IMG/VR virus record: IMGVR_UViG_3300048892_000198
Coordinates: 1-64,000 of that record
Direction: 5' to 3' (one strand)
DNA: 64,000 nucleotides
From: a virus
Shown here piece by piece: positions 452-43,075 of this stretch (position 1 is its first letter; each line of letters begins with the position of its first letter). Below the pieces are notes generated by a model, which saw nothing but the letters and a program-made list of their open reading frames with translations, did not search any database and had not been told where the DNA came from. A program made the translations under genes and the position numbers.

Positions 452-1996
452 TCATTCAGCCGCATCGAGCAACTGATTTTTCGAGTTATTTGCATCCTGA
501 TCCCAGGAGGCACCGCACCCCTCGCAGTCGTGCCGAAGCTCGCGGGCCTTATCCCACTTGCAGAGAGCTCCACAGGCATGACAAGTGAGCGTGCGCTTGG
601 CGGGTTTGAGCACTTCGCACGCTTCCCCGAACACGCTCAAGATCTCGGCTCGGAGATAGTGCGGACCGACGAGGAAGCGGTAGTGGCGCGCCGCCGGGAT
701 CTCGTCCTGTCGTTCGCCAGGAGGCGCCCGCATCACGACGCTCCTCATATCGAACGCCTCCACCACGCACGAGTCGTAGCGGGCAAAGAGCTGCCGCGCC
801 CAGAGCCGGTAGATCTCGCGCCTCGAGCGGAGCGCGCCCGAGTATTCATCTCGCTCCCATTGGTAGAGGTGCCGATCGCGACGCGCCCAGTGCTCGCGAT
901 CGGCTGGGTCTTGCTTCTGAGCCTGCTCAAGGGTGAGCCGCACGCGGCCGAGCTCTCGGTGCGTCGCCGACGGGTCAGCGAGGGCCTCTCTTCGAGCTCG
1001 GGTGCGGCCGCGCGCGTCGCCTAGGTGAGCCGTGGCCATTCCATCGGCGAGCGAGCGCAGGGACTCGGCGTGCTTCTGTCGACCGATGAGCGAGTCGGGG
1101 ATGACGAGGCTCGTCTCGACCCCCTGATCGTCCACGGCGTAGGCCACCCGCACGCCGCCCTCGACGCGGCGCCAGCCAAAGTTGATGGCGCATTTGCCGA
1201 TGCCGGTTTTCGGTCGAGTCGCCGCCGCCGTGTCGAGCGTCAAGTGCACGGAGTAGACCCAGCGATCGCCGATGCGGTCGATGATGAGCCGCGCAAAGAT
1301 GATCCGCACCGGGTAGGGGACACCATCCTTGATTCCCAGCTCAGGGAGCGGGCGGTGATAGACGATGGGCACCTCAAGCGACAGCCCATCACGAAGTCGG
1401 AGCGTGATGACGCGGTGACCACAAGGCTTAGTCGGAAAGCGCGGCGTCTTCGCTCGGAGATCTCGCGCGCGGCAATCAGCGCATCGAAACTCTTCGGGGC
1501 CGATCTGCACGGGCCCCTTCAGAGATCGAAGCGCTGCATTCACCGTGAGCTTGGTTGCTCCCTGCACAGTCGCTGCCAGCATGCCCTCACCATCGTAGCG
1601 ACGGAAGCGCGGGCGAGCGCAAGCCATCACGCGCTTGACCCAGGGCCACTGCTTGCGTGCCGCACGGGCGCGGGCCTTGGACTCGTCACTGCGGCGTGTC
1701 TTCATGGCAGCGGCGACCATCTCGGTCACGGCTTGCTTTTGGCCCCAGCCAATCGAGGTCGCCGCGCCGACAGCGCGGCAGGCGGCGTTGTAGGCCAGCC
1801 GATGCTCGGTCTTCTGCGCATCGTCGAGCGGCGCCATCTGGAGATCTTCGGTGAGGTCGCGCGCGGCGATGCGCCAGCGCTCGATCTCAACGAGAGCGTT
1901 GTAGTAGAGGTTCGAGAGGCGCTGCTCGGCGAGCAAGTCCTCGAAGGTGCCGCCGATGACGCGGGGTTTGAGGGCGCCGTATTTGTAGACGAGCAT
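452..1996 (-). CDS. cas12m: Compact Cas12m-like (type V-M / V-U1) effector, 514 aa, predicted nuclease-inactive
   Basis: Adjacent to the array. Motifs shared with Cas12m: YKYGAL, YNALVEIER, RFRRYDGEG, VPIVYHRPLP, RuvC-I CAINFGWRR (catalytic D replaced by N), RuvC-II VVEAFD, C-terminal CHACG...CEGCG zinc finger and WDQDANN. Confidence 0.88.
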   Translation of the reverse strand: MLVYKYGALKPRVIGGTFEDLLAEQRLSNLYYNALVEIERWRIAARDLTEDLQMAPLDDAQKTEHRLAYNAACRAVGAATSIGWGQKQAVTEMVAAAMKTRRSDESKARARAARKQWPWVKRVMACARPRFRRYDGEGMLAATVQGATKLTVNAALRSLKGPVQIGPEEFRCADCRARDLRAKTPRFPTKPCGHRVITLRLRDGLSLEVPIVYHRPLPELGIKDGVPYPVRIIFARLIIDRIGDRWVYSVHLTLDTAAATRPKTGIGKCAINFGWRRVEGGVRVAYAVDDQGVETSLVIPDSLIGRQKHAESLRSLADGMATAHLGDARGRTRARREALADPSATHRELGRVRLTLEQAQKQDPADREHWARRDRHLYQWERDEYSGALRSRREIYRLWARQLFARYDSCVVEAFDMRSVVMRAPPGERQDEIPAARHYRFLVGPHYLRAEILSVFGEACEVLKPAKRTLTCHACGALCKWDKARELRHDCEGCGASWDQDANNSKNQLLDAAE

Positions 1997-7477: not shown

Positions 7478-7665
7478 AAGCCATCCTCTTTCTCCGCGCG
7501 TTCCTGAGCGAGATCTTCCCGCCCAAGCGCCGCATCGTGCGGCTCATCCGTCCGCACTGGCACACCCACGACTCGGCGCTGCTCGAGTGCGGGCACCGCG
7601 TCGTGGTCCTGAACTACTCCCTGGCTGCCCAGAGCCACGCGCGGTGCAATCGCTGCCTGCGCTAG
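7474..7665 (+). CDS. Small zinc-ribbon protein
   Basis: LECGH...CNRC; GTGA coupling. Confidence 0.55.
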   Translation: MKAILFLRAFLSEIFPPKRRIVRLIRPHWHTHDSALLECGHRVVVLNYSLAAQSHARCNRCLR

Positions 7666-8843
7666 ACGGCTTTGCCGTCAACGGTCACTGAGGTCGCGTC
7701 CGTCACCACGATGGTGCGCGCCGTGTGCGTGACGGGGGGCGGCACCGGGACAGGTGGGGGCGGAGGGGGAGGCACGGGCACCGGAGTCGTGCCCTTCAGC
7801 GCCGCCAGCAGCTTGTCACCGATCGGCACGCCGTTGCCCGTGCAGCAATCATAACCAGGGCGCGCTACGAAGGTGCCGTTGTTGCCGCTCGTGATGTCGC
7901 GGTTCCAGCCCTTGACTGCGTAGAGCGAGGCATGGAGCTGGCCCACTGGTTTGCCGAGGGCCTGCGAGAGCACGGCTGCGAGCGCGGCCCACATGGGCGC
8001 GACGGCGCTCGTGCCGCCGATGACCATCTGCTGACCGTCCACGATGACGTTCCAGCCGGTCTCGGGATCGGCGCAGCCGGCAACATCGGGGACGCCGCGG
8101 CGGGTCGAGCCCGGCACGTTGGAGGCCTTCTGGTACGAGGGCAACGCAAAGATCGCGCTCGTGCCGCCGCCCGTCGCGCCGCCTTGGCTGCCGTCGTTCC
8201 AGACGTTCTCGGTGAGGGGGGAGGTCGAGGGTAGACTCGTTCCGCCGCAACCGAGCACGTAGGGGCTGCTCGCCGGGAAATCGACATGCTGTCCCGCTTC
8301 GCCGTCGCCCGATCCGTTGTCGCCGGCAGCGGCCGTCACGGTGATGCCCTTACTCGCCGCCGCCGCGAACGCATTCTCGAAGCTCGAGATGGCCGAGATC
8401 GTCCATTGATTTTCTGCCGCGCCCCAGGAGATCGAAATCGCGGTCATATTGTCTGCGATCGCTTGATTGATGGCGGCGAGGAATCCCGCATCCGTGTTGG
8501 GGGCCATGTAGCAGTGGAGCTCGGCGCCTGGAGCCATGCCGCCGATGACGCAGAGGTCGAGCATCACCTCGCCATCGGCACCGTTCGGGTCGCCGGGGGC
8601 ATTCGGGGCGCCGCTCACACTGTGGAAAACGACGGGCTTGACCGAGAGACCAAGCGACTGGAAATACTTGTCGAGATCGGCTTGCACGTAGCCTCCGCCG
8701 AGCTCGATGACGGCGACCTTCATGCCCGTCCCATCGAAGCCCTTCGGGAAGCCGTAGATCTGCGCGAGCTGCTTCGGCGTGTAGCTCACGCCAGCCGTAT
8801 TGTGTTTGAAGTGGCGATGCTTGATGTAGGAACGAAACGTCAT
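7662..8843 (-). CDS. Sedolisin/kumamolisin-like S53 peptidase, catalytic domain only
   Basis: GEVMLD (Glu/Asp), SISWG, AAAGDNG (oxyanion Asp), GGTSAVAP (Ser) and a GYDxxTGxG Ca-binding-like site; Pro-rich C-terminal tail; no pro-domain or signal peptide. Confidence 0.92.
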   Translation of the reverse strand: MTFRSYIKHRHFKHNTAGVSYTPKQLAQIYGFPKGFDGTGMKVAVIELGGGYVQADLDKYFQSLGLSVKPVVFHSVSGAPNAPGDPNGADGEVMLDLCVIGGMAPGAELHCYMAPNTDAGFLAAINQAIADNMTAISISWGAAENQWTISAISSFENAFAAAASKGITVTAAAGDNGSGDGEAGQHVDFPASSPYVLGCGGTSLPSTSPLTENVWNDGSQGGATGGGTSAIFALPSYQKASNVPGSTRRGVPDVAGCADPETGWNVIVDGQQMVIGGTSAVAPMWAALAAVLSQALGKPVGQLHASLYAVKGWNRDITSGNNGTFVARPGYDCCTGNGVPIGDKLLAALKGTTPVPVPPPPPPPVPVPPPVTHTARTIVVTDATSVTVDGKAV

Positions 8844-8920: not shown

Positions 8921-9688
8921 TCAGTCTTCGTCGTCCTCGTCGTCATCTTCCGAATCGTCGTCGTCGTCCTCGCCGTCACCGCAACTCTCGCTGGCGGCGT
9001 TCATGAAGGCTTCGTTGAGCTTGCCGGACCCGCTCCCGTCCGCAAACTTACCGAGCTTGCTCTTCAGGAATTTCTCGGCCTTGTCGGTGTCTTCGTAGAA
9101 GTCGACCCAGTCACCGTCCCAGATCCCGACGCCTTCACCGCGGAGCGTCATCAGCACCAAGTAGGGGCCGTTGGCGTCCCAGAGATCTTCGGCGCCGGCG
9201 TCGTTTTCTGGAGGGTATTTCTCGACGAGCTCGGCGAGCGCCTTCTTCAGCGCTGCATCGTACTCACGGGCGACCTCGAAGACTTCTTCGTTAGGCTCGG
9301 CATCCTCCCAGTTATCGAGCTCCATGCTCTCGGCTGCCATCTCGCAGTAGGCCTTGAGTAGCACCGGATCATCGGCGAGACCGTGTGAGTCGGGGGGACG
9401 ACGCGCATTCGCAGTGAGCTTCCCGAGCCCGCGCCGCTGGAGAGCCGATCGGATTTGGCCTGCCGCTTCATCGAGCGGACCCGCACCTGCCGGGTAGCCC
9501 ACCTGGCGAGCCAACTCGGCCAAGGCAGAAGAGATCTGAGCGATACGCTGCGCAACCAGATCTTTGGAGGCGCCGGACTGCACCTCGTAGTCGAGCGCAC
9601 GCATCGAGCGCATGGCCGCGGCGCTCATCTCGCAGCGCGCTTCGTCACCAGAGTCCGTAGATCGATTCGGAACGCTCTTCTTCGGCAT
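8921..9688 (-). CDS. Two-domain phage protein with acidic C-terminus (anti-defence candidate)
   Basis: LMTLRGEGVGIWDGDW resembles the phage LTRNGHGAGFWD motif; poly-D/E tail; LTAN linker. Confidence 0.7.
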   Translation of the reverse strand: MPKKSVPNRSTDSGDEARCEMSAAAMRSMRALDYEVQSGASKDLVAQRIAQISSALAELARQVGYPAGAGPLDEAAGQIRSALQRRGLGKLTANARRPPDSHGLADDPVLLKAYCEMAAESMELDNWEDAEPNEEVFEVAREYDAALKKALAELVEKYPPENDAGAEDLWDANGPYLVLMTLRGEGVGIWDGDWVDFYEDTDKAEKFLKSKLGKFADGSGSGKLNEAFMNAASESCGDGEDDDDDSEDDDEDDED

Positions 9689-9708
9689 GGACTTTCTCCT
9701 ACGTCACA

Positions 9709-10329
9709 CTATCTGGAACGCTTCCCTTTGGGCAAGAGCACCCAGGCCCCCGCTCCGAGCACAACCGCTGATCCCAAGATCCAGGGCAGGGCCGAATCGC
9801 TCTCCGCTGACGCGATCAACGGCTCGATCGAATAGAACGCCGCCACGTGCGAAAACTCGGTCTCGCTCGCGCTGACGGCGCCCGCGGTCCCGTTGCCGTT
9901 GACGAGACCGATCGTGCCGTCGTAGCTCACGTCCGTCACGACCGCCTGGTGCTGATTGTTCGTGAAGTAAGCGATGTCGCCGGGCTGGGGGGTTTCGGTC
10001 GTCGGGAGGTGATCGAGGAAGCCCTGACCGATCACCCAGTTGAGGTCGCGCGCGAGCCCCGCCTGGTGCAGCGACCACAGCGCGAACGCTCCGCACCAAT
10101 CCGGCGGGTAGCCCGAGGGCGGAGTGCCCGGGAGCACGTCGGCCCAGTAGGGGTCGGCATTCGAGCGGCCGAGCTGGCTCTGGGCGGCCCGCACGACGCG
10201 CGCGCGCGGCGGGACGGGCCAGAGCGCGTAGGCGCCGACGGCGAGCCCCGCTGCCCCAAGGCCTGCCAAAGCCCAGCCTTGGGGCGTCTGGGGCAGGAGG
10301 CGCCTAGCGGGGGCAGAGAGCAGGAGCAC
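9709..10329 (-). CDS. CHAP/NlpC-P60-like peptidoglycan hydrolase flanked by TM helices
   Basis: DWCGAFALW, PQPGDIAYF, HQAVV, VNGN; TM helices at both ends. Start uncertain: GTG 10329 chosen because the upstream ATG collides with the divergent gene. Confidence 0.85.
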   Translation of the reverse strand: MLLLSAPARRLLPQTPQGWALAGLGAAGLAVGAYALWPVPPRARVVRAAQSQLGRSNADPYWADVLPGTPPSGYPPDWCGAFALWSLHQAGLARDLNWVIGQGFLDHLPTTETPQPGDIAYFTNNQHQAVVTDVSYDGTIGLVNGNGTAGAVSASETEFSHVAAFYSIEPLIASAESDSALPWILGSAVVLGAGAWVLLPKGKRSR

Positions 10330-10414
10330 GCCCCGAAAAGTAGCATCCTCCGGAGGGGACTGATAGTTTTCGAAGGGAAGAAAGGCGCCCTGGGCGCCGT
10401 AGGACCCAGAGAGC

Positions 10415-11881
10415 ATGCCGCGATCAGCCAAAAAACTCTGGAAACTCAATACCCGCACTGGCTATTGGGACTATCAGCGCAGCGTGACCGACGAAACGGC
10501 CGCGGAGTGGCTGGCTTTATTCCGCGAGGGCGAGCCCGATGCAGAATTCAAGGTCAGTACGAACCGCCCGACGCCTCCAGCTCTCACCCCAAACCGTGCC
10601 CTCACCCGGCACAAGCTCGAGACCATCGCCTGGGAGAAAACACCCAGGGACTACCGGGGATCTTCTGGCACGCGTCGCGAAGTGCTCATTAACACCACCG
10701 AGGGCACGACGCTCGTGCCGCTCGGCGATCTCACGGACTACCAGCTTCGGCGGTACATCGGGCCAGAGGCCCTGGAAGAGGCGGGCGACATGCGAGCAAA
10801 TGGCAAAGGGCGCTACTCGGATACCGTTGCGCAGCCAGGCGACTGGGTCATTTGGCGCCACGGCACGAGTGGCAAATACTACTTCGACCTCGTTCGCTCG
10901 GGTGGCACTCACAGCACAGCGGTCGGCAAGCCCGCGCAGACCCTTCCCGGCGCCATCAGCGATGTCCGCAAGAACGCGCTTCGCAGCAACGATCTCAGCG
11001 GCACCATCTTCGAGTTACGACGATCCGGTGACCTCGTGGAGATCGGCAAAGTCTTCGAGTCCCAGGATCGTCTCAACCAGAACCCTTCCCGACGCCATGT
11101 GATCCCGGCGCCGAGGTTCGAGTTGGGTGACCGCGTCACTCGCATCGACGAGCCAACCAATGTCGGCACCGTTGGTTACACTACCCGCACCTGGCATGGC
11201 GAGGAATACGGCCGATACCACTACAAAGTCGACTGGGACAACGGCGCGCCGCGGCACACTCAATGGGAAACGAAACTCATGCCATACGCTGGGGGACCCG
11301 AGTCGCATCAGCGCAACGCCGCCCGCGGCGAGGCCGACGAAGTCGCCGCCCGCGAGCTCAGCCTCTACATCGAAAACGAGTACTCGCTCGTCGGCGCCCC
11401 CAATTCTCAGGGCAAGGCGATCGAGAAAAATCTCGAAGGCCACCTACGTCGCGGCAACTTCGATCTCAAGAAGGCCGAGATCGCGTACATGCACCTGATG
11501 GAATCGGGGGCCAAGAAGTACGCGAAGGAATTCGCGAGCGAGCGCGACTGGCACCAGATCTTTTCCGTGCCCACCCGTGAGCTCGTGGCTCACGAGTTCG
11601 CGACGACGTTCGCGGAGGAGCACGGGATCAAGGGCTCCCTCACCCGGAACGCTCACATCGAGACCGATGAATTCGATGCCCCTGCCTACTGGGCGAGCGC
11701 CTTCATCAACGGCGACACGTCCGGCCTCGAAGAGAAAGAACTCGAAGAGTTCGAGGCCTGGTGCGCTAAGCACCCTCAGTTCTATGTTGTCGATGTGAGC
11801 GAAGAGACGCACATCGGTCGCTGGAACGGTCTCCAAACAGAATTGGCTACGTATACCGCCTACGTACAAGAAGGATCCTGA
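10415..11881 (+). CDS. Multidomain polyvalent-type phage protein, 488 aa
   Basis: About six small domains, including an SH3/KOW-like FELGDRV...YKVDWD, ARELSLYIENE and PAYWASAFINGDTSGL, separated by LTPN, MRAN, LNQN, HQRN and LTRN. Confidence 0.8.
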   Translation: MPRSAKKLWKLNTRTGYWDYQRSVTDETAAEWLALFREGEPDAEFKVSTNRPTPPALTPNRALTRHKLETIAWEKTPRDYRGSSGTRREVLINTTEGTTLVPLGDLTDYQLRRYIGPEALEEAGDMRANGKGRYSDTVAQPGDWVIWRHGTSGKYYFDLVRSGGTHSTAVGKPAQTLPGAISDVRKNALRSNDLSGTIFELRRSGDLVEIGKVFESQDRLNQNPSRRHVIPAPRFELGDRVTRIDEPTNVGTVGYTTRTWHGEEYGRYHYKVDWDNGAPRHTQWETKLMPYAGGPESHQRNAARGEADEVAARELSLYIENEYSLVGAPNSQGKAIEKNLEGHLRRGNFDLKKAEIAYMHLMESGAKKYAKEFASERDWHQIFSVPTRELVAHEFATTFAEEHGIKGSLTRNAHIETDEFDAPAYWASAFINGDTSGLEEKELEEFEAWCAKHPQFYVVDVSEETHIGRWNGLQTELATYTAYVQEGS

Positions 11882-11883
11882 TC

Positions 11884-12300
11884 ATGGCCGCTCGACGCAA
11901 AGCAAAACCCGCTGGACCGAAGAAGATCACCGAAGAGGACGTGAAGGCCGCAGTCGACGTGATCAGCTCTGAATACTGGCAAGAAGTGCGCGAGTGCGCC
12001 CAGGACTTCATCGAGCGCTTCAACAAAGGCGAGTTCAGGGACGAGGAAGACTACCGAGAGCAACTCGAGCAGTACGTCGATGGGTCACAGCGCGTGATCT
12101 ATACCTACTGGGCGCGCCTTGGGCTACTCGCCACCAACTCTGCAGAGGCTTACGAGGAAGAGACCGGTGAGGTTCCGGCGGGTGACTCAGCTGGGATCTC
12201 CAGGCAGATGTACTTCGCCTTCCGGCAAGACATCCTGAACAACATCGGTTCGGACATCGACTTCGACGAAGGCGGCCCCAAGCACCGTCGCCGCATATAA
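11884..12300 (+). CDS. Ocr-like (T7 gp0.3-like) acidic DNA-mimic candidate with basic termini
   Basis: Acidic helical core EFRDEEDYREQLEQYVDGSQRVIYTY resembles the Ocr DxLHxxxDxxVxxYY segment; N-terminal MAARRKAK and C-terminal KHRRRI. Confidence 0.6.
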   Translation: MAARRKAKPAGPKKITEEDVKAAVDVISSEYWQEVRECAQDFIERFNKGEFRDEEDYREQLEQYVDGSQRVIYTYWARLGLLATNSAEAYEEETGEVPAGDSAGISRQMYFAFRQDILNNIGSDIDFDEGGPKHRRRI

Positions 12301-13700: not shown

Positions 13701-14600
13701 GTGAATCGGCTCGATAGCAAGCGCAGGCAGCAAGTGATTGCTGCGATAGTCGAAGGGTGCAGCGTGCGCTCCACGTGCCGCATGACGGGCGTCGCCAAGG
13801 GCACCGTGCTCCGCCTGATCGCCGAGTTGGGCCAAGCGTGTGACGAGTACCAGGACCGCGCGCTGCGTAACCTCCCGTGTAAGCGGGTGCAGTGCGACGA
13901 GATCTGGTCGTTCTGCTACGCCAAAGAAAAGAACGTCCCCGAGCGCATGAAGGACATGCCGGGCGTCGGGTCCGTTTGGACCTGGACTGCGATTGACGCC
14001 GATTCGAAGCTCGCGATTAGCTGGTACGTGGGCAACCGCGACCAGGACGCCGCGGTGAAGTTCATGCTGGACGTGGCGAGCCGCATGGAAGGCCGAATCC
14101 AACTCACGACCGATGCCTGGAAGCCGTACCGTTGGGCCACGACGCTCGCGTTCGACGGCGAAGTTGACTACGCGCAGCTGATCAAGATCTACGCGGGAAT
14201 GCCGCACAGCGACGCGGGTGGGAAGTACAGCCAACCGGAGTGCGTCGGCTCGAAGATCGACGTGCGGCACGGCAACCCAGATCTCGACCACGTTTCCACG
14301 TCGTACGTGGAGCGCGCGAACCTGACGATGCGCATGGGCATGCGGCGCTTCACGCGGCTGACCAACGGGTTTTCGAAGAAGATCGAGAACCATGAGCACG
14401 CGATCGCGCTGCACTTCATGCACTACAATTTCTGCCGCAAGCACGAGACGCTGAAGATGACGCCGGCCATGGCCGCGGGCGTGGCCGACCACATCTGGAC
14501 GCTGGCTGAGCTGGTCGCGCTGGTCCCGGACCGCCCGGCAGCTGCCTGGGGCTCGAAGAAAGTCGGCCGCGCGACCGGCGACGGCGAGAACTCAAATTGA
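13701..14600 (+). CDS. IS1-family DDE transposase, single ORF with N-terminal HTH
   Basis: HTH EGCSVRSTCRMTGVAKGTV; QCDEIWSF, LTTD, STSYVERANLTMRMGMRRFTRLTNGFSKK. Confidence 0.93.
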   Translation: MNRLDSKRRQQVIAAIVEGCSVRSTCRMTGVAKGTVLRLIAELGQACDEYQDRALRNLPCKRVQCDEIWSFCYAKEKNVPERMKDMPGVGSVWTWTAIDADSKLAISWYVGNRDQDAAVKFMLDVASRMEGRIQLTTDAWKPYRWATTLAFDGEVDYAQLIKIYAGMPHSDAGGKYSQPECVGSKIDVRHGNPDLDHVSTSYVERANLTMRMGMRRFTRLTNGFSKKIENHEHAIALHFMHYNFCRKHETLKMTPAMAAGVADHIWTLAELVALVPDRPAAAWGSKKVGRATGDGENSN

Positions 14601-14616
14601 CCCAGTACCAAAATCT

Positions 14617-14979
14617 TCAGCGAAAGATCCCGCTCACCGGCGCCGCAATCTGAGCGGGCGGCGCCGGGATCGTCGGGGCTAGGTTCCGCTGGCTCCGCAC
14701 GCGTGCGCCGGCATCGACGCCGCCGATCTCAGCGAGTAAATCGCAGAGCTCGTTGATGTTCGATTCGCCGGGTACGCGACGGAGGAGCGCGTGACCCATG
14801 CCGTGCTCGAGGGAGGCGACGGCGATTTTGGCGACCGTGAAGAAGAGCGCGGCCTTCACGGGCGAGACGCCGACGACGCCCGCCACGAAGCCCAGGCCGA
14901 AATGGAGCGGCGTGTAGAAGTCGACCGCCGCTTGCCCGTACTCCGAGCGATTCCGAGCGATGAGGCGCGCGCGCGGCAT
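14617..14979 (-). CDS. Hydrophobic membrane protein
   Basis: VDFYTPLHFGLGFVAG...ES.INELCDL pattern. Confidence 0.65.
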   Translation of the reverse strand: MPRARLIARNRSEYGQAAVDFYTPLHFGLGFVAGVVGVSPVKAALFFTVAKIAVASLEHGMGHALLRRVPGESNINELCDLLAEIGGVDAGARVRSQRNLAPTIPAPPAQIAAPVSGIFR

Positions 14980-24289: not shown

Positions 24290-24544
24290 TCAGCGGCGAC
24301 GGCGACGACGGGATCGATTCGGGGTCAGGCGCTTGGCTGACTTTTCCGAGAACTCACTGCCTGCCGGGATCTCGTACAAGGTCCCGTGCTCACGCTTGGC
24401 GTACGATCGTGCTTCTCCCAGATCACCGAAGTACTCGTAGCGCCCGCCAGACACCTGCACGAAGTAGTCCTTCCGCAGGAAGAGCCACCATGCGCCAGCT
24501 ACCGCAGCCGCTCCGAGGACAATGACCGTCGCTGCGCTCGCCAT
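24290..24544 (-). CDS. Small membrane protein with LTPN-RSRRRRR tail
   Basis: N-terminal TM; Arg-rich tail. Confidence 0.7.
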   Translation of the reverse strand: MASAATVIVLGAAAVAGAWWLFLRKDYFVQVSGGRYEYFGDLGEARSYAKREHGTLYEIPAGSEFSEKSAKRLTPNRSRRRRRR

Positions 24545-29203: not shown

Positions 29204-31357
29204 TCAACCGAACACGCCCTGACCGCCATCGGTCTGCAGGATGCCGGCCGGCACCATCTCGGTCGCACTTTGCGGATTGGAGATGCCGCGGGTACCCGCC
29301 CAGAGCTGCCCGTTGGCAGAGCCTGGGATCCAGGTCGAGGCCGAGGGCACCGTCGAGATGGCCCCGAAGCCCGCGGAGGCCTCGTAGCTCGGGAGAGCCC
29401 CGACGCCGGCTGCCGCTTCCGCGATGGTCAACTCGCGGTCGAGATCGCCGTGCGGATCGATGTGGTTGGTGTTCGCGAGCTCTCGCGCTCCCATGCCCGC
29501 CGCCGCTTCCTGGAAGTCGGGGTTGGCACCGTAGCCGGCCGCTGCCTCGTAGGCAGGGAGACCGAGTCCGGACACGCCGTTGTTCGAGAAGTACTCGCCC
29601 AGGCCCGAGACGCCGGAGTCGAAGTACTCGCCGAGACCATTGACGCCCGAGCTGAAGTATTCACCCATCGGACGACCGATGGAAGAATACCGAGGCTGCA
29701 GGCTGGTGCCAGCGCCGAGGCCGTACATCGCGCTCAAGCGCGCTGCCGTGCCGTCGTCACCGCTCAGCATGTCCGAGTACTGCGGCACGAACTTCGTCAC
29801 GAGCGCCGACAAGAACGTGTGCGCGAAGCTCACGGCGATGCCGGTCATGACGGTGTTGCGCGTGCCCGCGTCCTTGATGAGCTTCGCCGAAGCGAAGACA
29901 CCGAGGCCTGCGACCAGGAAGGAGGCGCCGATCTTCTGGTAGGACGGATCGAGATTGATCAGACCGAGACCAGAAGTAGCGGGCGCCACGACCGCTGCAG
30001 TCGTCGGGCTCGTCGCGACGACGACTGCCGGCGCTCCGAAGATCCTCCCGAACACCTGCTTCAGTACGAGGTTGGTGATGACCTTGTGAGCGACCAAACC
30101 CGTCAGGGCAATGCCGCCCGTCTTCAGCACGAACATCACCGGCTCGAGGATGCCGTTCTTCCGGAACATCCGGCTGCCGTTGCGGCGATGCCGACGACGG
30201 CTGGAGCGGTTCCGACGATGCCCACGACGCCGACGGTTCGAGCTCATGCGCGCCCGGCTTCGGCTGCGACGCCGACGCGGGTTTGCACTCAGCCGCCGAC
30301 TCGAGCGCCGACGACGGCGACCGTTGGCGGTGAGCTTTCGCTTGGCCCGACGCCGACGACGCTTCGGTGCGCCGCCTTTGGCCAGAGCCCGACGACGGCG
30401 ACGAGCCGCAACGGCCGATTTCTTCATCGACAGCTTGCGCTTGCCCCGACGACGGGTCACGCGCTTCTTGGCGGACCGACGACGACGCTTCGGCGCTGCT
30501 GCGGAGGCCTTGCGGCTCTTCCGACGCTTTCGCTTCGGAGCTTTACCCGAGGCGCGGCGCGTACGCCAGCCCTTACGAGCTCCCTTGCTCGTGCCGTAGT
30601 TGCGCTTCAGCCGACGACGGCGGCGATTGGCTTTGAGCGTGACCTTCCGCGCGCGCCGACGTTTCCGCTTCGGAGCGGCAGTGCGCTTCGCAACTCGGCG
30701 ACGCTTCTTGGTCGTGCGGCGTTTGGCAACGCGACGGCGCTTGACGGGCTTGCGCGCGGCGCTCTTCTTTCGGCGACGAACTTTACGAGCCATGGGCTTC
30801 TTCCTTGTTGCTTTCTTGGGCGCCGCACGGCGCCGGGACTTCGGTTTCGCGGCCTTGCGCACGGCCTTCGCCTTGCGCTTCCGCTTTCGGGGCTTAGCCG
30901 GGCCCCAAGGATCTCGGTGACGACTGGCGGCGCGCTCCCAGATCCGCTCTTGCGCGGGGGACACGTCGTTGCGCTTCATGGAACGAGCGCGCTTCGCGGC
31001 GCCGTAACTCTTGTACGTTTTGACCCGTCGCTTGCCGCCGACGTAGCTCACTTCACGGACGGGGCCGCCGCCTTTGCGCCAAGCGCGCAGGCTGTTCTTG
31101 CCCTTGGCCGCTCGCATCTTCTGCGCGAAGGCGGACTTCTTGGCAGCGCTGAGACTCGAGCGCGCCGCGGCGGGGCGGCGATTGGCGCTGAGACCGCTCA
31201 TCGTCCGGCGGGCAGAGCGGTAGCTGCCGCGGCCATTGATGGCGGCGATGTGGGTAACGGAACCGTTCCGCTTGAGGGCGCGCTTCTTCGGCGGGCTAAC
31301 GTAGCCGTACGCCTTTACAGCGTTCTTTTTGATGCGGTATGCGCGCCCAATAGCCAT
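29204..31357 (-). CDS. Protamine/histone-H1-like Arg/Lys-rich core protein with hydrophobic segment and GLG-repeat tail, 717 aa
   Basis: About 400 aa of K/R runs punctuated by xxxN motifs; hydrophobic helices; (G)xGEYF x3 and EAxAGxGA x4. Confidence 0.85.
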   Translation of the reverse strand: MAIGRAYRIKKNAVKAYGYVSPPKKRALKRNGSVTHIAAINGRGSYRSARRTMSGLSANRRPAAARSSLSAAKKSAFAQKMRAAKGKNSLRAWRKGGGPVREVSYVGGKRRVKTYKSYGAAKRARSMKRNDVSPAQERIWERAASRHRDPWGPAKPRKRKRKAKAVRKAAKPKSRRRAAPKKATRKKPMARKVRRRKKSAARKPVKRRRVAKRRTTKKRRRVAKRTAAPKRKRRRARKVTLKANRRRRRLKRNYGTSKGARKGWRTRRASGKAPKRKRRKSRKASAAAPKRRRRSAKKRVTRRRGKRKLSMKKSAVAARRRRRALAKGGAPKRRRRRAKRKLTANGRRRRRSSRRLSANPRRRRSRSRARMSSNRRRRGHRRNRSSRRRHRRNGSRMFRKNGILEPVMFVLKTGGIALTGLVAHKVITNLVLKQVFGRIFGAPAVVVATSPTTAAVVAPATSGLGLINLDPSYQKIGASFLVAGLGVFASAKLIKDAGTRNTVMTGIAVSFAHTFLSALVTKFVPQYSDMLSGDDGTAARLSAMYGLGAGTSLQPRYSSIGRPMGEYFSSGVNGLGEYFDSGVSGLGEYFSNNGVSGLGLPAYEAAAGYGANPDFQEAAAGMGARELANTNHIDPHGDLDRELTIAEAAAGVGALPSYEASAGFGAISTVPSASTWIPGSANGQLWAGTRGISNPQSATEMVPAGILQTDGGQGVFG

Positions 31358-31953: not shown

Positions 31954-33545
31954 GATTTTCTCTTCTTCCAGAGCGTCGCGCCGAGCAGGCCGACGCCGAG
32001 CAGCAGCATGCCGTAGTTCAGCAGGTCGGAGAGATTTTTTCCTGTCTTCTGCGCAACGACGTAACCTGCGGCGCGATCGAGCGCGGCGTTCGTGAGCTGC
32101 TGAGCGTTCGCTTTCAGGATGTCGTTGATCTTCTTTTCGGCGCCAACGGTCGCCGCAGTCTTCACGAGATCACCGACGACGGTCACGCTCAAGATCTGAA
32201 GTGCCTTCACGGCGGCTTGCTCTTGCGCAAGAGCGCTCGCCATGGAGTTCAGCCAGTTCTGCCTGGTGGTCGAGTCGAGCAGATCGACGCCGGAGGGCAC
32301 CGGGTAACTGCATTGATAATGCCGCTCGGCTTCGGGAAGCCAGATCGCGCCCCTCGCCAGAAACGCTTGCGCGTCGCGCTCGAGGCCCGTCGGCATCGTC
32401 AGGCCCGACACGATCGGGTAGGGGCAGCCGAAGTCCACGGGGCAGCCGTATGAGTAGACGTTGCTCCTCGCCGTCACGTCTTTGCCCTGCGCGGCGTCGT
32501 AGTACGTGGAGGCCTGCACCTGGTGCCCTACCACCTGCGCGCGGTTCGCTTGGGTCTCAGCGCCCGTGAAACGCCGCGTGGGCGCGTCCCACGCGTGCGA
32601 GAACGGCTGCCCAATCGGCGCGTATGTCTCGACCCCAAACCACCGAAGGTTAAACTTCCACCCGATGTTGATCTCGGCGAGCTCCCACTGAAGCTCTGTC
32701 GAGAGCAGTAGCTGATCGAAGGTCTGCCAGTAGCTCGCGCGCGCGGTCGAGCAGAGGGCATTGGCTTCTGCGACGGTCGACTTAGCCCACGAGCTCTGCG
32801 CGTTGATGCGCGATTGGATTTCTTCTGCGCCCGATGGGCCTGCGCCGAAGATCTGCCCGATGGTGCCCCCGATGTCTTTGCCGATGAGCCCACCAATGAA
32901 GGCTCCAATGGGCGCCGGGATCCCGAATGCCTGACACACGACAGCGCCCGCGATAGCGCCCGCGACGCCGCCAATGGCTTCGCACTCGGACGGACTCAGC
33001 TTCCCGTCCATGAGCGACTCGGCCGTCACCGTCAGGATCGACGAATCAAGCCCCGTCTCCATCACGAACGCCGTCGTCGCGAGGTTGACCGCGGCGGCCT
33101 TCAGATCTTTGACGTTCGTGGGCCAGTCGGTCGGGATCTGCACACCGAGATCGCTCGCGGCAACCTTCATGGCGTACTGCTCGAGTTCTTTCTGGTTGGT
33201 CGGCACGCCATTGTCGCGCGCGTAGGCGATGAGCGCCTTCTGCATCAGCGCTTCGACCTTCTTCGGATCCTTCAAGTCGCTCACCTTGAAGCCCGGGATC
33301 CCCTTGAAGTAGGCGGCGTATTTATTGTACTCGGCGATGACTGCGGCAGCGGGTGGGTAGTTCTCGAGCTGCTGCTTGGCGTAGGCGATGGCTTGCGCCT
33401 TGGCCTGATCGACGGCGGAGCTGACCGCGGCGTCGGCCTGCTTCTTGTAGTCCTGGGCGCTCGGCACTGTATCCGAGTTGCCCGGCAGATCGCTGTAGCC
33501 AAAGAGGCCGTGACGGCGACGGCGAGGCACTGCGGCGTAGGCCAT
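31950..33545 (-). CDS. Large tail-anchored virion membrane protein (entry or membrane-interaction candidate), 531 aa
   Basis: MAYAAVPRRRRHGLFG; internal glycine zipper GGVAGAIAGAVV...GAFIGGLIG; C-terminal TM plus KKRKS. Confidence 0.75.
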   Translation of the reverse strand: MAYAAVPRRRRHGLFGYSDLPGNSDTVPSAQDYKKQADAAVSSAVDQAKAQAIAYAKQQLENYPPAAAVIAEYNKYAAYFKGIPGFKVSDLKDPKKVEALMQKALIAYARDNGVPTNQKELEQYAMKVAASDLGVQIPTDWPTNVKDLKAAAVNLATTAFVMETGLDSSILTVTAESLMDGKLSPSECEAIGGVAGAIAGAVVCQAFGIPAPIGAFIGGLIGKDIGGTIGQIFGAGPSGAEEIQSRINAQSSWAKSTVAEANALCSTARASYWQTFDQLLLSTELQWELAEINIGWKFNLRWFGVETYAPIGQPFSHAWDAPTRRFTGAETQANRAQVVGHQVQASTYYDAAQGKDVTARSNVYSYGCPVDFGCPYPIVSGLTMPTGLERDAQAFLARGAIWLPEAERHYQCSYPVPSGVDLLDSTTRQNWLNSMASALAQEQAAVKALQILSVTVVGDLVKTAATVGAEKKINDILKANAQQLTNAALDRAAGYVVAQKTGKNLSDLLNYGMLLLGVGLLGATLWKKRKS

Positions 33546-34108
33546 CAGCCGACGATCCCGTCTTTTTCCACTCCCAGGATGTCGCCCGTGATGATCGCGC
33601 AGAGTTCGGTCTTCGTGTAGACGATGAGGAAGGTGTCTCCCGAGTCGGGATGCACGGCCGCTCCCACGTAAGCGCGCGCGATGTCGACCCCATAGTACTG
33701 ACCGCTCAGGACGAGCTCTTCATCGTCGTCGCACTCGGCGTACGGCTGGTACTGGAGCCCCAAGATCGGAGCCAAGACCGCGATCGCGGTCGGCATCCGC
33801 TTCGGAAGCTCGACCTCTTCGCACGGGAATGGCAAGTGCTTGCGCGTGCTGTAGTCGCGAAGGAAGCCGTCCTTGACGTAGAGCTTCTGCGGGCCTTCGG
33901 CGACGTGCTTATAGTCCTGGTAGTCGCCGCGCTTCTTCCACTTATCTGACGTGTATTGCACGGCTTCTGACTGCCCGACGCAGTAGAGCTTTTTCGGCCA
34001 CTTCCAATGGATCTTGGTCTCCTTCTCCACCTTGCGATCGACAAAGGCCTCCCGGATCCGCTTGGCGGATTCGTAGTCGGAAGCGTTGACGATCAGGCGG
34101 CGAGACAT
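33545..34108 (-). CDS. Hypothetical virion-associated protein
   Basis: MSRRLIVNA (LxxN motif); YTSDKW...YKH...VEKDGIVG. Confidence 0.7.
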   Translation of the reverse strand: MSRRLIVNASDYESAKRIREAFVDRKVEKETKIHWKWPKKLYCVGQSEAVQYTSDKWKKRGDYQDYKHVAEGPQKLYVKDGFLRDYSTRKHLPFPCEEVELPKRMPTAIAVLAPILGLQYQPYAECDDDEELVLSGQYYGVDIARAYVGAAVHPDSGDTFLIVYTKTELCAIITGDILGVEKDGIVG

Positions 34109-36148: not shown

Positions 36149-36346
36149 TTATTTCCAGGTAAAAATCAAAGTGACGACGCCAGCGCCGAGCGCGGCTCCC
36201 AGTAGCAACATCACCAGAGGGCTCGACGTATCGACGGGGGCGGAGTTCGTGCTCGGCGTCGATACCGTCACCGTGAACGGATCGCTGCCCATGCCATGAA
36301 GCGCGGGTTGCGGGTGACGCGGTGTGTAGCGATGCGGCATGTTCAT
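36149..36346 (-). CDS. GLG-family small membrane protein
   Basis: HGMGSD; C-terminal TM ending WK. Confidence 0.65.
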   Translation of the reverse strand: MNMPHRYTPRHPQPALHGMGSDPFTVTVSTPSTNSAPVDTSSPLVMLLLGAALGAGVVTLIFTWK

Positions 36347-36807
36347 CTCGTGGGACGGAAGACTCCGAGGGTGTCAGCTGTTTTCAACACGAGCACTCCG
36401 GCAATAGCGACGGCGCTCCAGAACGCGATCTTGGTCACCGTGTCCGCCGCGCTCTGCAGGATCTGAGTGCTCGATTCGACCTGCGGCTTCTGCACGGTGT
36501 CGTTGCTCGATTTGACGCTCGAGTCGGCGACCGTCGGATACCCAAACGTCACAGCGTCCCAAGGAGCGGGTGACTTAACGCTGAAGATATAGAAGTCGCG
36601 AGCAGGGAAATCAGTCGTCGCCTCGAAACTCTCGGTGTCCTCTACTTGCAGTGAGGCGGCGTTCGTTTTCAGCCACGTCGACATCTTGTCGCGGTTGTCC
36701 CCAAACACGTCGAGCCAGTACCGCCCAGCGGGCAGGGGGTTCGTGCGCATGAGCACACCGAGGGCGGCAATGCTCATGGGGTTATGGACCGAGTGGTACG
36801 ACATCAC
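36343..36807 (-). CDS. Tail-anchored protein, paralog of 36804-37253
   Basis: RTNPLPAGRYWLDVFG...PWDAVTFGYP. Confidence 0.78.
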   Translation of the reverse strand: MMSYHSVHNPMSIAALGVLMRTNPLPAGRYWLDVFGDNRDKMSTWLKTNAASLQVEDTESFEATTDFPARDFYIFSVKSPAPWDAVTFGYPTVADSSVKSSNDTVQKPQVESSTQILQSAADTVTKIAFWSAVAIAGVLVLKTADTLGVFRPTR

Positions 36808-41784: not shown

Positions 41785-42506
41785 CAGGCAGCCGCTTTCG
41801 GTTTTTTGAAGGTCCTGTAAAGCGCGTAGCCGCCGACTGCGACCACGACCAGGATGAGCCCGTTGGAGAGCATGCCGGCGGATTTCTTCGTGGGCGTCGT
41901 CGTGATGGGCCCGGGAGATCCAGGCGTGATAGCAGGCACGGGAGCAGATGCGGGCGGCATCGGCTCGGGGCGTAGGTCGCCTGGCGGAGGACCCAGGACG
42001 GGCTGCGCAGGCGGGGTCGGCTGCGGACGCAAGGGCGCGATGGCGGGGAGAGCCGGCGGGCAGACTGGCAGCAGTGCCAGCGCGCAGGCGGAGCCAGTGG
42101 GATCGGCGCCGAGGCCGCGCACCGTTTGCGACATGGCGCTGCAGGTCTGCTGCCAGTTGTCGTGCTGGGCTTGCGAGACGCAGCCCGGGTAACCTGCAGG
42201 AGTGACCGCGCCCGCGGCCCGCGCCGCGGCGTTGGCCTGATCGAGCGCTCTCTGATTTTTGAGCTGCTGCTGCGTGCGCGCCACGAATGCCGCCGCGCGC
42301 GCTGCCTGCTCGGCCTTCCAGGCCGCGAGATCGCGCTGATAGCTCGCGAGCTGCGAAGCGTAGCCGGCGGCCGCGCCCGCGCTTTGAGCCGCGTAAGCTG
42401 CGACGGCGTTGTCGTGGCCCGCCTTCTCTTGCAGCCAGGCCGCGTGATCGGAGGCATAGTCGCCGAGCCCAGCGATCTTTCCGTGATAGGCGCGCGCGTA
42501 ACTCAT
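41784..42506 (-). CDS. GLG-family tail-anchored protein with coiled coil
   Basis: MSYARAYHGKIAGLGD; RGLGA; TM plus RTFKKPK. Confidence 0.75.
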   Translation of the reverse strand: MSYARAYHGKIAGLGDYASDHAAWLQEKAGHDNAVAAYAAQSAGAAAGYASQLASYQRDLAAWKAEQAARAAAFVARTQQQLKNQRALDQANAAARAAGAVTPAGYPGCVSQAQHDNWQQTCSAMSQTVRGLGADPTGSACALALLPVCPPALPAIAPLRPQPTPPAQPVLGPPPGDLRPEPMPPASAPVPAITPGSPGPITTTPTKKSAGMLSNGLILVVVAVGGYALYRTFKKPKAAA

Positions 42507-43075
42507 CCTTCGATCCTCCAAATTTTGTGAGTCGTCACGCGACTGAGCATCGTTGCCTCGTCGGTGCCCGCGACCGGATCGCAGATGATCCAGCGCTGGC
42601 TCTTGGGCTCTTGCACCCGGCAGAAGACGTGAGCGAAGGAATTGGGGCGCCCGAATCCGACGGTGACGTACTCGATCTCGCGGCCAAGCTGGCGGCAGAG
42701 CGTGCCGACGAGGAGCGCGATCTCATCGCAGTCGGCGACGGCTTTTCCGTGCTGCACGATCTCTTCGCACATGCGCTCGGGATCTTGCACCTGCTCGACC
42801 GCAACGGCGTCGTTCGAGTACTTGACCTTTTCGGCGACGAAGTTTCTGACGGCCAAGATCTCCGACACGTAGTCCTTGGGCGCGATGTCCCGGACGATGT
42901 GATCCTTCAGCGACCGCACGAGCGTCGACTGCTCGCCGCGTGGGCCGACCGTCATCGAGATCATGAGCAGGATGGTGTCCTGCGGCCCATGGAAGGGTCG
43001 GATCGCGGTCGGTTGGGTAGCAGCGATGGCGGAGGGCATGGGTCGGCCTACACGAGACCAACCTGAATCGCTCAC
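42503..43075 (-). CDS. Transglutaminase-like cysteine protease (candidate virion maturation protease)
   Basis: FVAEKVKYSND, ADCDE (Cys), FAHVF (His), WIICDPV (Asp); first gene after the shared promoter. Confidence 0.87.
   Translation of the reverse strand: MSDSGWSRVGRPMPSAIAATQPTAIRPFHGPQDTILLMISMTVGPRGEQSTLVRSLKDHIVRDIAPKDYVSEILAVRNFVAEKVKYSNDAVAVEQVQDPERMCEEIVQHGKAVADCDEIALLVGTLCRQLGREIEYVTVGFGRPNSFAHVFCRVQEPKSQRWIICDPVAGTDEATMLSRVTTHKIWRIEG

What the first reader, a model, noticed from the sequence alone, without database searches (positions are those of the whole stretch)
8921..12300. Anti-defence-like cargo carries the same [LMH]xxN motif or basic tails: possible virion-loading code
Seen: the 488-aa protein's domains are separated by LTPN-R, MRAN-G, LNQN-P, HQRN-A and LTRN-A. 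ORF 8921-9688 has LTAN-ARR between two domains. The motif recurs in 24290 (LTPN-RSRRRRR), 33545 (LIVN-A) and 36343 (MRTN-P). The Ocr-like protein and 34115 have acidic cores with Arg/Lys tails. Known: polyvalent proteins and P1 DarA/DarB are delivered with DNA to counter host defence. Inference: these are packaged polyproteins released as individual effectors by the processing that acts on the core protein.
Basis: partly seen in the sequence, partly recalled or inferred. Interest (0 to 1): 0.78.

Follow-up and report, generated by a model that had tools for sequence, protein, structure and literature searches.

The report
Asn motif separates shuffled viral protein cassettes
In an uncharacterised ~135-kb bacterial virus lineage, small protein domains are strung together in ever-changing orders and every joint carries the same short asparagine motif that also punctuates a protamine-like basic protein, which looks like a cutting code for a viral protease but has not been shown to be cut.

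Summary
The five listed motifs in the 488-aa protein (10415-11881) lie in low-confidence linkers of the AlphaFold model. They also lie where homology to 66 shuffled relatives breaks: 111 of 185 boundaries are within 8 residues, against 32 expected. Across the clade, breakpoints peak exactly on the motif Asn.

The motif, [HMLYF]-x-x-N-[AG]-R, precedes 68-91% of internal copies of one widespread domain. It is absent from the same domain in unrelated phages, so it is a clade-specific linker signal and not part of a fold.

In 91 homologues of the 717-aa basic protein, 906 of 1225 Asn carry a hydrophobic residue or His at -3, against 198 expected.

My best reading, at about 0.45, is a recognition site for site-specific proteolysis. 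This would cut domain arrays and the basic region into pieces. The best protease candidate is the clade-conserved transglutaminase-like Cys-His-Asp enzyme (42503-43075).

Cleavage, virion packaging and an anti-defence role are all inferred. The "Ocr-like" label and the basic-tail code are not supported. Other notes of this scan cover the same genome; none covers other DNA.

The parts
10415..11881 (+). 488-aa cassette array. It has a disordered N-terminal piece (1-56), cassette A (61-125), B (130-215), C (229-294, SH3/Tudor/KOW-like barrel), D (305-403, all-alpha, widespread) and E (413-488).
   Evidence: No Pfam, PHROG or NCBIfam family. 66 close and 1425 distant homologues carry the pieces in shuffled order. 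AlphaFold model with pLDDT 71.9. Cassette C has Z up to 7.7 to small beta-barrels, which is a common fold.
10583..10594 (+). Joint motif LTPN (residues 57-60)
   Evidence: Lies in the pLDDT<50 segment 34-58. Homology starts cluster at q55-59.
10790..10801 (+). Joint motif MRAN (126-129)
   Evidence: pLDDT dips to 63 here. Homology starts at q125-126 and ends at q129-133. Some homologues start exactly at this Met.
11072..11083 (+). Joint motif LNQN (220-223)
   Evidence: Lies in the pLDDT<50 segment 216-228. Boundaries fall at q210-233.
11306..11317 (+). Joint motif HQRN (298-301), upstream of cassette D
   Evidence: Lies in the pLDDT<50 segment 295-304. Homology starts cluster at q296-306. 140 of 154 internal D copies have an Asn here.
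11639..11650 (+). Joint motif LTRN (409-412)
   Evidence: Lies in the pLDDT<50 segment 408-417. Homology ends cluster at q402-408.
8921..9688 (-). 255-aa two-part protein with an acidic tail. Its C-terminal cassette (about 101-241) is the one that is fused inside cassette arrays of relatives.
   Evidence: BLAST to P0010-P0012, P0016, P0018, P0024, P0037 and P0041. The cassette is fused into the array of the relative G001.
9407..9418 (-). Joint motif LTAN (residues 91-94) of ORF 8921-9688
   Evidence: Homology to relatives starts at q83-103. The same cassette in relatives is preceded by LKRN, HRRN, LRRN, HRKN or MSKN.
11884..12300 (+). 138-aa conserved partner gene that starts 3 nt after the array's stop. 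It is mildly acidic (pI 4.8) with a basic N-terminus.
   Evidence: 79.5% identical and in the same position in G001. No family or Atlas match.
9709..10458 (-). Membrane-anchored CHAP-domain protein, transcribed divergently from the array gene
   Evidence: Pfam CHAP, 2.9e-08. The same arrangement is found in G001.
7662..8843 (-). S8/S53-like serine peptidase without a pro-domain. Its 15-residue leader ends in FKHN.
   Evidence: Pfam Peptidase_S8, 1.9e-10. Absent from the complete relative G001, so it cannot be the clade's common protease.
29204..31357 (-). 717-aa protein. Its Arg/Lys-rich half (about 1-400) is punctuated by 12 [ILMHF]xxN motifs; membrane-like helices and GLG repeats follow.
   Evidence: The minus strand is the coding one (GC3 0.78). 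10 [LMH]xxN against 2.1 expected. 91 homologues keep the motif.
42503..43075 (-). Transglutaminase-like Cys-His-Asp enzyme, the best protease candidate. The real start is probably at 43039 (178 aa).
   Evidence: Pfam Transglut_core. 284 homologues at 58-95% identity, on the same large contigs. Invariant C104, H137 and D154. Model pLDDT 86.7; it matches TGase-like proteases, LapG and PeiW/PeiP.
24290..24544 (-). 84-aa membrane protein ending in LTPN plus an Arg run
   Evidence: Sequence read. No orthologue was recovered in G001.
33545..34108 (-). 187-aa protein with RRLIVN-A at residues 3-9
   Evidence: G001 has RRLLIN-R at the same place.
36343..36807 (-). 154-aa protein with MRTN-P (20-24) and LKTN-A (46-50)
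   Evidence: No orthologue was found, so conservation is untested.

Best explanation
The locus 8921-12300 is a fast-changing accessory locus of an uncharacterised dsDNA virus lineage. Complete relatives have genomes of about 135 kb with terminal repeats.

The 488-aa protein is an array of five small, independently folding cassettes. Relatives carry the same cassettes in other orders, numbers and fusions. Each cassette brings with it, on its N-terminal side, a short linear motif [H/M/L/Y/F]-x-x-N-[A/G/R/P]-[R/S] that lies in a disordered linker. The same motif is spaced along the Arg/Lys-rich half of the 717-aa basic protein.

The most likely mechanism is that the motif is the recognition site of one site-specific endopeptidase. 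That enzyme would cut the arrays into single domains and chop the basic region into short DNA-binding peptides. This resembles how the adenovirus protease or the T4 and phiKZ prohead proteases process core and internal proteins.

The best candidate enzyme is the clade-conserved transglutaminase-like Cys-His-Asp protein at 42503-43075. It heads the co-oriented block that holds the basic protein.

Shown here: the motif, its location at joints, its clade specificity, and its conservation in two unrelated protein families. Inferred: that it is cut; which bond is cut (after Asn, or after the hydrophobic residue, whose L/M/H/F/Y set resembles a chymotrypsin-type P1 set by general knowledge); which enzyme acts; that the products are in the virion; and what the cassettes do.
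For: 1. The joints are real. AlphaFold confidence drops below 50 at 4 of the 5 motifs and dips at the fifth. 111 of 185 homology boundaries lie within 8 residues of the five Asn, against 32 expected. Clade-wide, 3922 of 7167 breakpoints do so against 1446 expected, with the mode exactly at the Asn.

2. The motif is a linker signal, not fold. 140 of 154 internal copies of cassette D have an Asn within 13 residues upstream, and 104 have the full motif. Upstream of D, P4 is H .26, M .21, Y .19, L .18, F .12; P1' is A .53, G .34; P2' is R .60. D proteins that stand alone mostly lack the motif (3 of 13 carry it). D in unrelated phages, alone or fused, also lacks it. The Asn lies 5 to 17 residues before the first helix or strand of the next cassette.

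3. The same odd residue set appears in an unrelated protein. In 91 homologues of the basic protein, 906 of 1225 Asn have [LMHIFYV] at -3 against 198 expected. Enrichments there are L 7x, M 6x, H 10.6x, F 5x, Y 4x.

4. Covalent linkage is dispensable. The 8921 cassette is a separate gene here but sits inside the array in G001.

5. There is no DNA-level repeat at the motif, and Leu is mostly CTC, so selection acts on the peptide.

6. Candidate enzyme. The TGase-like protein is among the most conserved genes (83% to G001; 284 homologues) and occurs on the same large contigs. Its triad is invariant. Its fold matches site-specific proteases such as LapG.

7. Precedents exist for motif-directed cutting of packaged proteins: SPN3US gp245 (PMC10052503) and adenovirus AVP (PMC4246237).
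Against: There is no protein-level data of any kind.

The motif always travels with the downstream cassette. It is kept at the very N-terminus of 21 of 66 proteins (8.5 expected) and never forms a C-terminal tail. A pure separator would not need that. It fits an N-terminal tag or a binding motif at least as well.

Pro follows the Asn in about 8-9% of sites. By general knowledge, most endopeptidases dislike Pro at P1'.

No protease with known Asn specificity is present: Pfam C13 and C14 find nothing. The TGase fold also includes cell-wall isopeptidases (PeiW/PeiP) and amidases (PNGase), so the candidate may have another job.

The virion nature of the 22-43 kb block is itself inferred. The complete relative has no recognisable terminase, HK97 capsid, FtsK ATPase or prohead protease.
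Confidence: 0.45

Rival explanations
1. The motif is an uncut short linear motif. It would be a docking or modification site read by one viral or host partner. Examples are binding to a capsid or scaffold component so that cargo and basic protein are loaded together, or Asn deamidation or cross-linking by the transglutaminase-like enzyme.
For: The motif lies in disordered linkers. It occurs in many copies per protein, which suits avidity. It belongs to the downstream cassette and is kept at protein N-termini, where there is nothing to separate. The candidate enzyme's fold family includes amidases and transglutaminases.
Against: Known transglutaminases act on Gln, not Asn (general knowledge). 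A docking motif need not sit at every joint, nor be absent upstream of cassettes that stand alone. Cassettes that occur either fused or split fit release better than tethering.
Confidence: 0.25
2. There is no trans-acting factor. The motif would be a passive by-product of how cassettes are joined: linker composition, or the remnant N-terminus of former small genes (Met at the hydrophobic position) that were fused in frame.
For: Several homologues start exactly at the motif's Met (MQKN, MHKN, MRQN). Gene fusion and fission are frequent in this family.
Against: His, Tyr and Phe are as common as Met at -3. Leu is encoded by CTC, which is not a start codon. Unrelated cassettes would not converge on Asn plus [AG]R by descent. 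The same motif is enriched 4.6-fold in the basic protein, which is not a cassette array. Asn is otherwise rare in this 63% GC genome.
Confidence: 0.15
3. The motif self-cleaves at Asn by succinimide formation, in the manner of asparagine peptide lyases, and no protease is needed.
For: The Asn is nearly invariant and is followed by Gly, Ala or Pro. Several viral coat proteins self-cleave at Asn (PMC3207474).
Against: By general knowledge, the known lyases need a folded catalytic environment around the Asn. Here the Asn lies in low-confidence linkers between unrelated domains, and the conserved hydrophobic residue or His at -3 points to recognition by a binding pocket.
Confidence: 0.07
4. The motif is a chance pattern picked out by eye.
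For: The genome-wide count is not enriched: 104 against 96.5. The motif was defined after looking at the sequences.
Against: Position tests on independent data contradict this: breakpoints; upstream of D; 906 against 198 in 91 homologues.
Confidence: 0.02

Closest known systems
T4 internal proteins with N-terminal capsid-targeting sequence, cut by the gp21 prohead protease (Peptidase_S77); phiKZ/SPN3US ejection proteins cut by gp175/gp245
   Same: In both, a short consensus site is shared by several otherwise unrelated proteins. The site lies N-terminal to the mature part. Long propeptides are cut at several sites (PMC10052503). Some of the products are delivered into the host cell (PMC10052503, PMC9026906).
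   Different: Those sites have Glu at P1; here the fixed residue is Asn. No S77 protease is found in this genome or in its complete relative. Here whole folded domains, not propeptides, lie between the sites, and the domains are shuffled between relatives. Virion location is unknown here.
Adenovirus maturation by AVP, which cleaves core and capsid precursors
   Same: Basic DNA-condensing core proteins and other virion precursors are all cut at one consensus (substrate Met-Arg-Gly-Gly, PMC4246237). By general knowledge that consensus has Met/Leu/Ile at P4. Here the basic protein and the arrays share a motif with a hydrophobic residue or His at -3.
   Different: The AVP consensus has Gly at P2 and P1 (PMC4246237; the full consensus from general knowledge), not Asn. 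AVP is a Peptidase_C5 enzyme, which is absent here. The candidate here has a transglutaminase fold. The host is prokaryotic.
Polyvalent proteins of phages and conjugative elements, and P1 DarA/DarB
   Same: They are multi-domain, modular proteins of mobile elements, thought to enter the cell with the DNA and to act on host defence (as summarised in 10.64898/2026.04.20.719267; PMC12810830).
   Different: By general knowledge, those are very large proteins with recognisable enzymatic and LPD domains. These are 250-760 aa and built from small domains with no family match. No conserved joint motif is described for polyvalent proteins, to my knowledge.
Bacterial transglutaminase-like cysteine proteases (LapG type)
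   Same: The fold and the Cys-His-Asp triad match. LapG is a site-specific endopeptidase (general knowledge).
   Different: LapG cuts at a di-alanine motif in a periplasmic adhesin (general knowledge). The specificity and substrates of the viral enzyme are unknown.
CdiA and Rhs polymorphic toxins with VENN or (Q/E)LYN demarcation motifs
   Same: A short motif ending in Asn, with a hydrophobic residue a few positions before it, marks the border of swappable C-terminal modules (general knowledge).
   Different: Those have one border per protein and the coding DNA is conserved for recombination. Here there are several borders per protein and no DNA-level conservation. No toxin or immunity genes were recognised.

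Membership tests
Polyvalent proteins (large modular proteins of phages and plasmids) | Large polyvalent-protein-associated (LPD) domains or enzymatic anti-defence domains (ArdC, methylase, helicase, peptidase) | tested here: not met
   Pfam, PHROGs and NCBIfam find no such domain in the 488-aa, 255-aa or 138-aa proteins, nor in ten long homologues.
Polyvalent proteins (large modular proteins of phages and plasmids) | Many independent domains in variable order among relatives | tested here: met
   Cassettes are shuffled in 66 homologues.
T4-type internal proteins / prohead-protease substrates | A Peptidase_S77 (gp21-like) prohead protease is encoded by the virus | tested here: not met
   No match in G000 or in the complete relative G001. 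The same search finds it in G002 and G003.
T4-type internal proteins / prohead-protease substrates | Cleavage consensus with Glu at P1 | tested here: not met
   The conserved residue at the joints is Asn.
T4-type internal proteins / prohead-protease substrates | The protein is present in the virion and processed | not testable with these tools
   There is no isolate and no proteome. The only indirect hint is that cassette D is fused to S77 proteases in two unrelated phages.
Adenain-type (Peptidase_C5) maturation | A C5 protease gene | tested here: not met
   No match in G000 or G001.
Ocr family DNA mimics | Match to the ocr family model | tested here: not met
   PF08684 finds nothing in G000 or G001. 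The 138-aa protein has no Pfam, PHROG or NCBIfam hit.
Ocr family DNA mimics | Strongly and uniformly acidic surface mimicking DNA | tested here: inconclusive
   pI 4.79, with 28 acidic against 20 basic residues. The Atlas model has low confidence (pLDDT 0.53) and no informative neighbours.
Transglutaminase-like cysteine proteases | Transglut_core fold with a Cys-His-Asp triad | tested here: met
   Pfam hit above cut-off. C104, H137 and D154 are invariant in 37 sequences. Foldseek matches 3isr, 3kd4, TgpA and LapG with probability 0.92-1.0.
Transglutaminase-like cysteine proteases | Demonstrated endopeptidase activity on the motif | not testable with these tools
   This needs biochemistry.
Asparagine peptide lyases | Scissile Asn held in a folded self-processing domain | tested here: not met
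   The motif Asn lie in segments with pLDDT below 50, between unrelated domains.
Legumain/caspase clan (Asn- or Asp-specific Cys proteases) | Peptidase_C13 or C14 domain encoded | tested here: not met
   No match in G000.

The most novel reading that the evidence does not exclude
A prokaryotic dsDNA virus lineage without recognisable tailed-phage hallmarks uses true polyproteins. Shuffled effector cassettes and a protamine-like DNA-condensing protein would all be released by one transglutaminase-fold maturation protease with a new Asn-centred specificity ([HMLYF]-x-x-N). The products would be packaged and delivered with the genome. This would be an adenovirus-like maturation and cargo system in a bacterial virus.
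Probability: 0.2. Interest if true: 0.85.

Novelty: new variant of a known kind. Interest (0 to 1): 0.62.

Why it matters
If the motif is a cutting code, this lineage does something rare for dsDNA viruses of bacteria. It would build arrays of small domains as polyproteins and swap the domains freely between relatives.

The code would also give a sequence-only way to split hundreds of dark-matter proteins into their functional units. It would predict the mature ends of a protamine-like genome-condensing protein.

It would define a new protease specificity, centred on Asn with a hydrophobic residue or His three positions before it, and possibly a new role for the transglutaminase fold.

Even if nothing is cut, a conserved linker signal shared by two unrelated protein families points to one unknown partner that could be found by pull-down.

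Tried and rejected
1. Protease-substrate docking. The TGase-like protein (alignment A3) was folded with linker 283-322 of the array. The result was no verdict (score 0.00), so it is no evidence either way.

2. S8/S53-like peptidase as the common protease. Rejected, because it is absent from the complete relative, which keeps the motif.

3. DNA-level recombination site or internal translation start. Rejected, because nothing is conserved beyond the codons and Leu is mostly CTC.

4. Helix N-cap. Rejected, because the Asn lies 5-17 residues before the next secondary-structure element and in low-confidence segments.

5. N-glycosylation sequon. Considered and set aside, because the commonest followers (NAR, NGR, NRA) are not N-x-S/T.

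6. Function of the cassettes. Pfam, PHROGs, NCBIfam, PDB sequence search, Foldseek on PDB and BFVD, VIA-align and the ESM Atlas gave no function. They showed only an SH3/Tudor/KOW-like barrel for cassette C and about 100-aa uncharacterised phage proteins for D.

7. Virus identity. No match in the phage or plasmid collections. Sources give no names. The Lalka phages of Thermus (10.64898/2026.04.20.719267) were read and are unrelated in size and content.

I therefore could not test whether basic-protein variants that lack the motif (P0253 and P0254, 2 of 12-13 Asn) also lack the TGase-like gene.

9. Standalone D genes in low-GC phages lie among UvsX and DnaB genes, not head genes. D is therefore not generally a head-module gene.


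Full report
**Context.** The window is the first 64 kb of a 110,728-bp IMG/VR virus record, estimated 82% complete, with GC about 63%. The only close relative in IMG/VR is G001, at 135,429 bp with direct terminal repeats and rated complete. Gene order is largely shared between the two.

Neither genome has a recognisable large terminase (Terminase_6N), HK97-type capsid, FtsK-type ATPase or T4-type prohead protease. Recognisable genes include DnaB, a sigma factor, a beta clamp, ThyX, glycosyltransferases and a 1695-aa collagen-repeat protein. The kind of virion is therefore unknown. Calling the 22-43 kb block a 'virion module', or the 717-aa protein a 'core protein', is an inference.

**The observation.** In the 488-aa protein there are six [LMH]xxN matches against 2.2 expected from shuffles (P about 0.013). 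Five are followed by A/R/G/S/P, against 0.8 expected (P 0.002). That is modest for a motif defined after the fact, and the genome as a whole is not enriched (104 against 96.5).

The strength lies in position. An AlphaFold model built on 20 homologues (pLDDT 71.9) has folded blocks at about 61-122, 131-215, 229-294, 305-407 and 417-484. Confidence falls below 50 at 34-58, 216-228, 295-304 and 408-417, and dips at 121-130. These are exactly where the five listed motifs lie. The sixth match, LRSN 189-192, sits inside helix 177-190 and serves as a built-in negative control.

**Shuffled relatives.** The protein has 66 close homologues of 268-762 aa, none named, on contigs of up to 136 kb. Their local alignments to the query break at q55-59, q125-133, q210-233, q296-306 and q402-412. 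Of 185 boundaries, 111 are within 8 residues of the five joint Asn, against 32 expected; only 1 lies near the control.

All-against-all among the 66 proteins gives 3922 of 7167 internal breakpoints within 8 residues of a [LMHFY]xxN Asn, against 1446 expected. The mode is at distance zero. Reading the sequences shows nearly every joint with forms such as HTPN-RA, MRKN-GR, HSPN-AS and LARN-AS.

ORF 8921-9688 belongs to the same system. Its C-terminal cassette (about 101-241), preceded by LTAN-ARR, occurs inside arrays of relatives behind LKRN, HRRN, LRRN or HRKN. In G001 it is part of the array gene itself.

**The motif is a linker signal, not part of a fold.** Cassette D (residues 305-403, all-alpha) is widespread, with 1425 cluster representatives at E below 0.001. 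Among 154 non-redundant internal copies, 140 have an Asn within 13 residues upstream and 104 have the full motif. At -3 the residues are H .26, M .21, Y .19, L .18, F .12. At +1 they are A .53, G .34, P .08. At +2, R is .60.

Proteins that consist of D alone start directly with the domain, and only 3 of 13 carry the motif. In unrelated viral contigs D is a 107-aa stand-alone protein or is fused without the motif. The motif therefore belongs to this lineage's joints. The Asn lies 5-17 residues before the next helix or strand, so it is not a helix cap. There is no nucleotide conservation around it, and Leu is mostly CTC, so it is neither a recombination site nor a hidden start codon.

**The basic protein.** The minus-strand ORF 29204-31357 is the coding one. 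Its first 400 residues or so are Arg/Lys-rich and hold 10 [LMH]xxN (2.1 expected) plus IKKN and FRKN. The last of these lies right before the hydrophobic part.

In 91 homologues found through the C-terminal half, 906 of 1225 Asn in the basic regions have [LMHIFYV] at -3, against 198 expected. Enrichments are L 7x, M 6x, H 10.6x, F 5x, Y 4x. The unusual grouping of His with Leu and Met is the same as at the array joints. That is the best argument that one factor reads both.

One caveat applies: homologues are related, so the counts are not independent events. However, lengths and sequences of the basic regions differ widely. A few homologues (P0253, P0254) have lost the pattern.

**What reads the motif.** No legumain, caspase, papain-C1, adenain or S77 domain is encoded. 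Three hydrolases were considered.

- The S8/S53-like peptidase next door (7662-8843) has a short leader ending in FKHN. It is absent from G001, which keeps the motif, so it cannot be the common enzyme.
- The membrane-anchored CHAP protein (9709-10458) is conserved beside the array gene in both genomes. By general knowledge, its family usually cuts cell wall.
- The transglutaminase-like protein (42503-43075) is the first gene of the co-oriented block that holds the basic protein. It is 83% identical in G001 and has 284 homologues at 58-95% identity on the same large contigs. Its Cys-His-Asp triad is invariant. Its confident model (pLDDT 86.7) matches transglutaminase-like putative proteases, TgpA, LapG, PNGase and the viral isopeptidases PeiW/PeiP.

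The transglutaminase-like protein is the best candidate, but the fold does not fix the reaction.

**Which bond, and a caution.** The motif always belongs to the following cassette. Array proteins that end after D stop just before where the motif would be. None ends with the motif, and 21 of 66 begin with it within the first nine residues, against 8.5 expected.

If the cut is after Asn, first cassettes would lose a 3-9-residue leader and all cassettes would start with A/G-R or R-A. If the cut is after the hydrophobic residue, all would start x-x-N. By general knowledge, the L/M/H/F/Y set resembles a chymotrypsin-type P1 set.

The same asymmetry also fits an uncut N-terminal tag or docking motif. 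That is why the cleavage reading gets only about 0.45 and the docking or modification rival 0.25.

**Virion loading and anti-defence.** Evidence is indirect.

- In two unrelated large high-GC phages, D lies inside 762-aa and 883-aa proteins that begin with a T4 gp21-type prohead protease domain. In those phages D is therefore fused to a prohead-protease domain, which would put it in the prohead core if the fusion behaves like T4 gp21.
- In a third phage, D is fused to a 2H phosphoesterase that weakly matches the anti-CBASS Acb1 family.
- Against a general head role, stand-alone D genes of low-GC phages lie among UvsX and DnaB genes.
- The cassettes have no recognisable function. C is an SH3/Tudor/KOW-like barrel, which is a common fold.
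- The 138-aa protein called 'Ocr-like' has no family, Atlas or ocr-model match and a pI of 4.8. It is, however, a conserved partner: it starts 3 nt after the array gene, is 79.5% identical in G001, and holds the same position there. Its C-terminal basic tail is missing in G001, so basic tails are not a conserved code.

**Comparison with known systems.** The closest working analogies are motif-directed maturation of packaged proteins in T4 and in phiKZ/SPN3US (PMC9026906, PMC10052503), and adenovirus maturation by AVP (PMC4246237). In the phage systems Glu is at P1, propeptides are cut at several sites, and some products are ejected into the host. In adenovirus, basic core proteins and other precursors share one consensus with a hydrophobic P4.

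Membership in any of these families fails on the protease and on the consensus. The definition of polyvalent proteins is not met. Self-cleaving asparagine lyases (PMC3207474) need a folded context that is absent here.

**Verdict.** Processing is the most likely but untested mechanism. Virion loading is weakly hinted. Anti-defence, Ocr-likeness and basic tails are not supported.

I class it as a new variant of a known kind (motif-directed processing of viral proteins) in a lineage that is itself dark matter. Interest is 0.62.

Noticed in passing
L008:6897-9185 and L038:6774-9425 (unrelated viral contigs of 116 and 131 kb): Cassette D sits inside 762-aa and 883-aa proteins that begin with a Peptidase_S77 (T4 gp21-like prohead protease) domain. 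An acidic linker and coiled-coil-like regions follow, which looks like a protease-scaffold fusion carrying D.
   Followed up: partly
L036:7398-8372: Cassette D is fused behind a 2H phosphoesterase domain (2_5_RNA_ligase2, 7.9e-11) that also weakly matches the anti-CBASS Acb1 family (3.4e-4, below cut-off).
   Followed up: no
G001 (L042-L048), whole record: The complete 135,429-bp relative with terminal repeats has no match to Terminase_6N, HK97 Phage_capsid, FtsK_SpoIIIE or Peptidase_S77. Its first 27 kb or so are small ORFs with no counterpart in this record. The virion type of the lineage is unknown.
   Followed up: partly
window 11884-12300: The 138-aa gene starts 3 nt after the array's stop. 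It is far better conserved (79.5%) than the array itself and holds the same position in the relative. It may be a fixed partner of the variable arrays.
   Followed up: partly
window 7662-8843: This S8/S53-like peptidase has no pro-domain or signal peptide. It has a 15-residue basic leader ending in FKHN (the same motif) and a Pro-rich tail. It is absent from the relative G001.
   Followed up: partly
window 13701-14600: An IS1-like DDE transposase gene lies just downstream of the locus. The stretch 12.3-14.6 kb has no counterpart in G001, where the 138-aa gene is followed directly by the orthologue of 14617-14979.
   Followed up: no
window 28302-29054: This is the most conserved protein between the two genomes (about 91% identity). 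It is 250 aa with no family or PDB sequence match, and it lies next to the basic protein. It is a capsid candidate that deserves a structure prediction with a deep alignment.
   Followed up: no
window 24290-24544: This 84-aa protein has one N-terminal membrane helix and ends in LTPN followed by RSRRRRRR. No orthologue was recovered in G001.
   Followed up: no
window 452-1996: This 514-aa protein has a weak Cas12f1-like TNB match (E 0.008). It is 72% identical to a 488-aa protein in G001.
   Followed up: no
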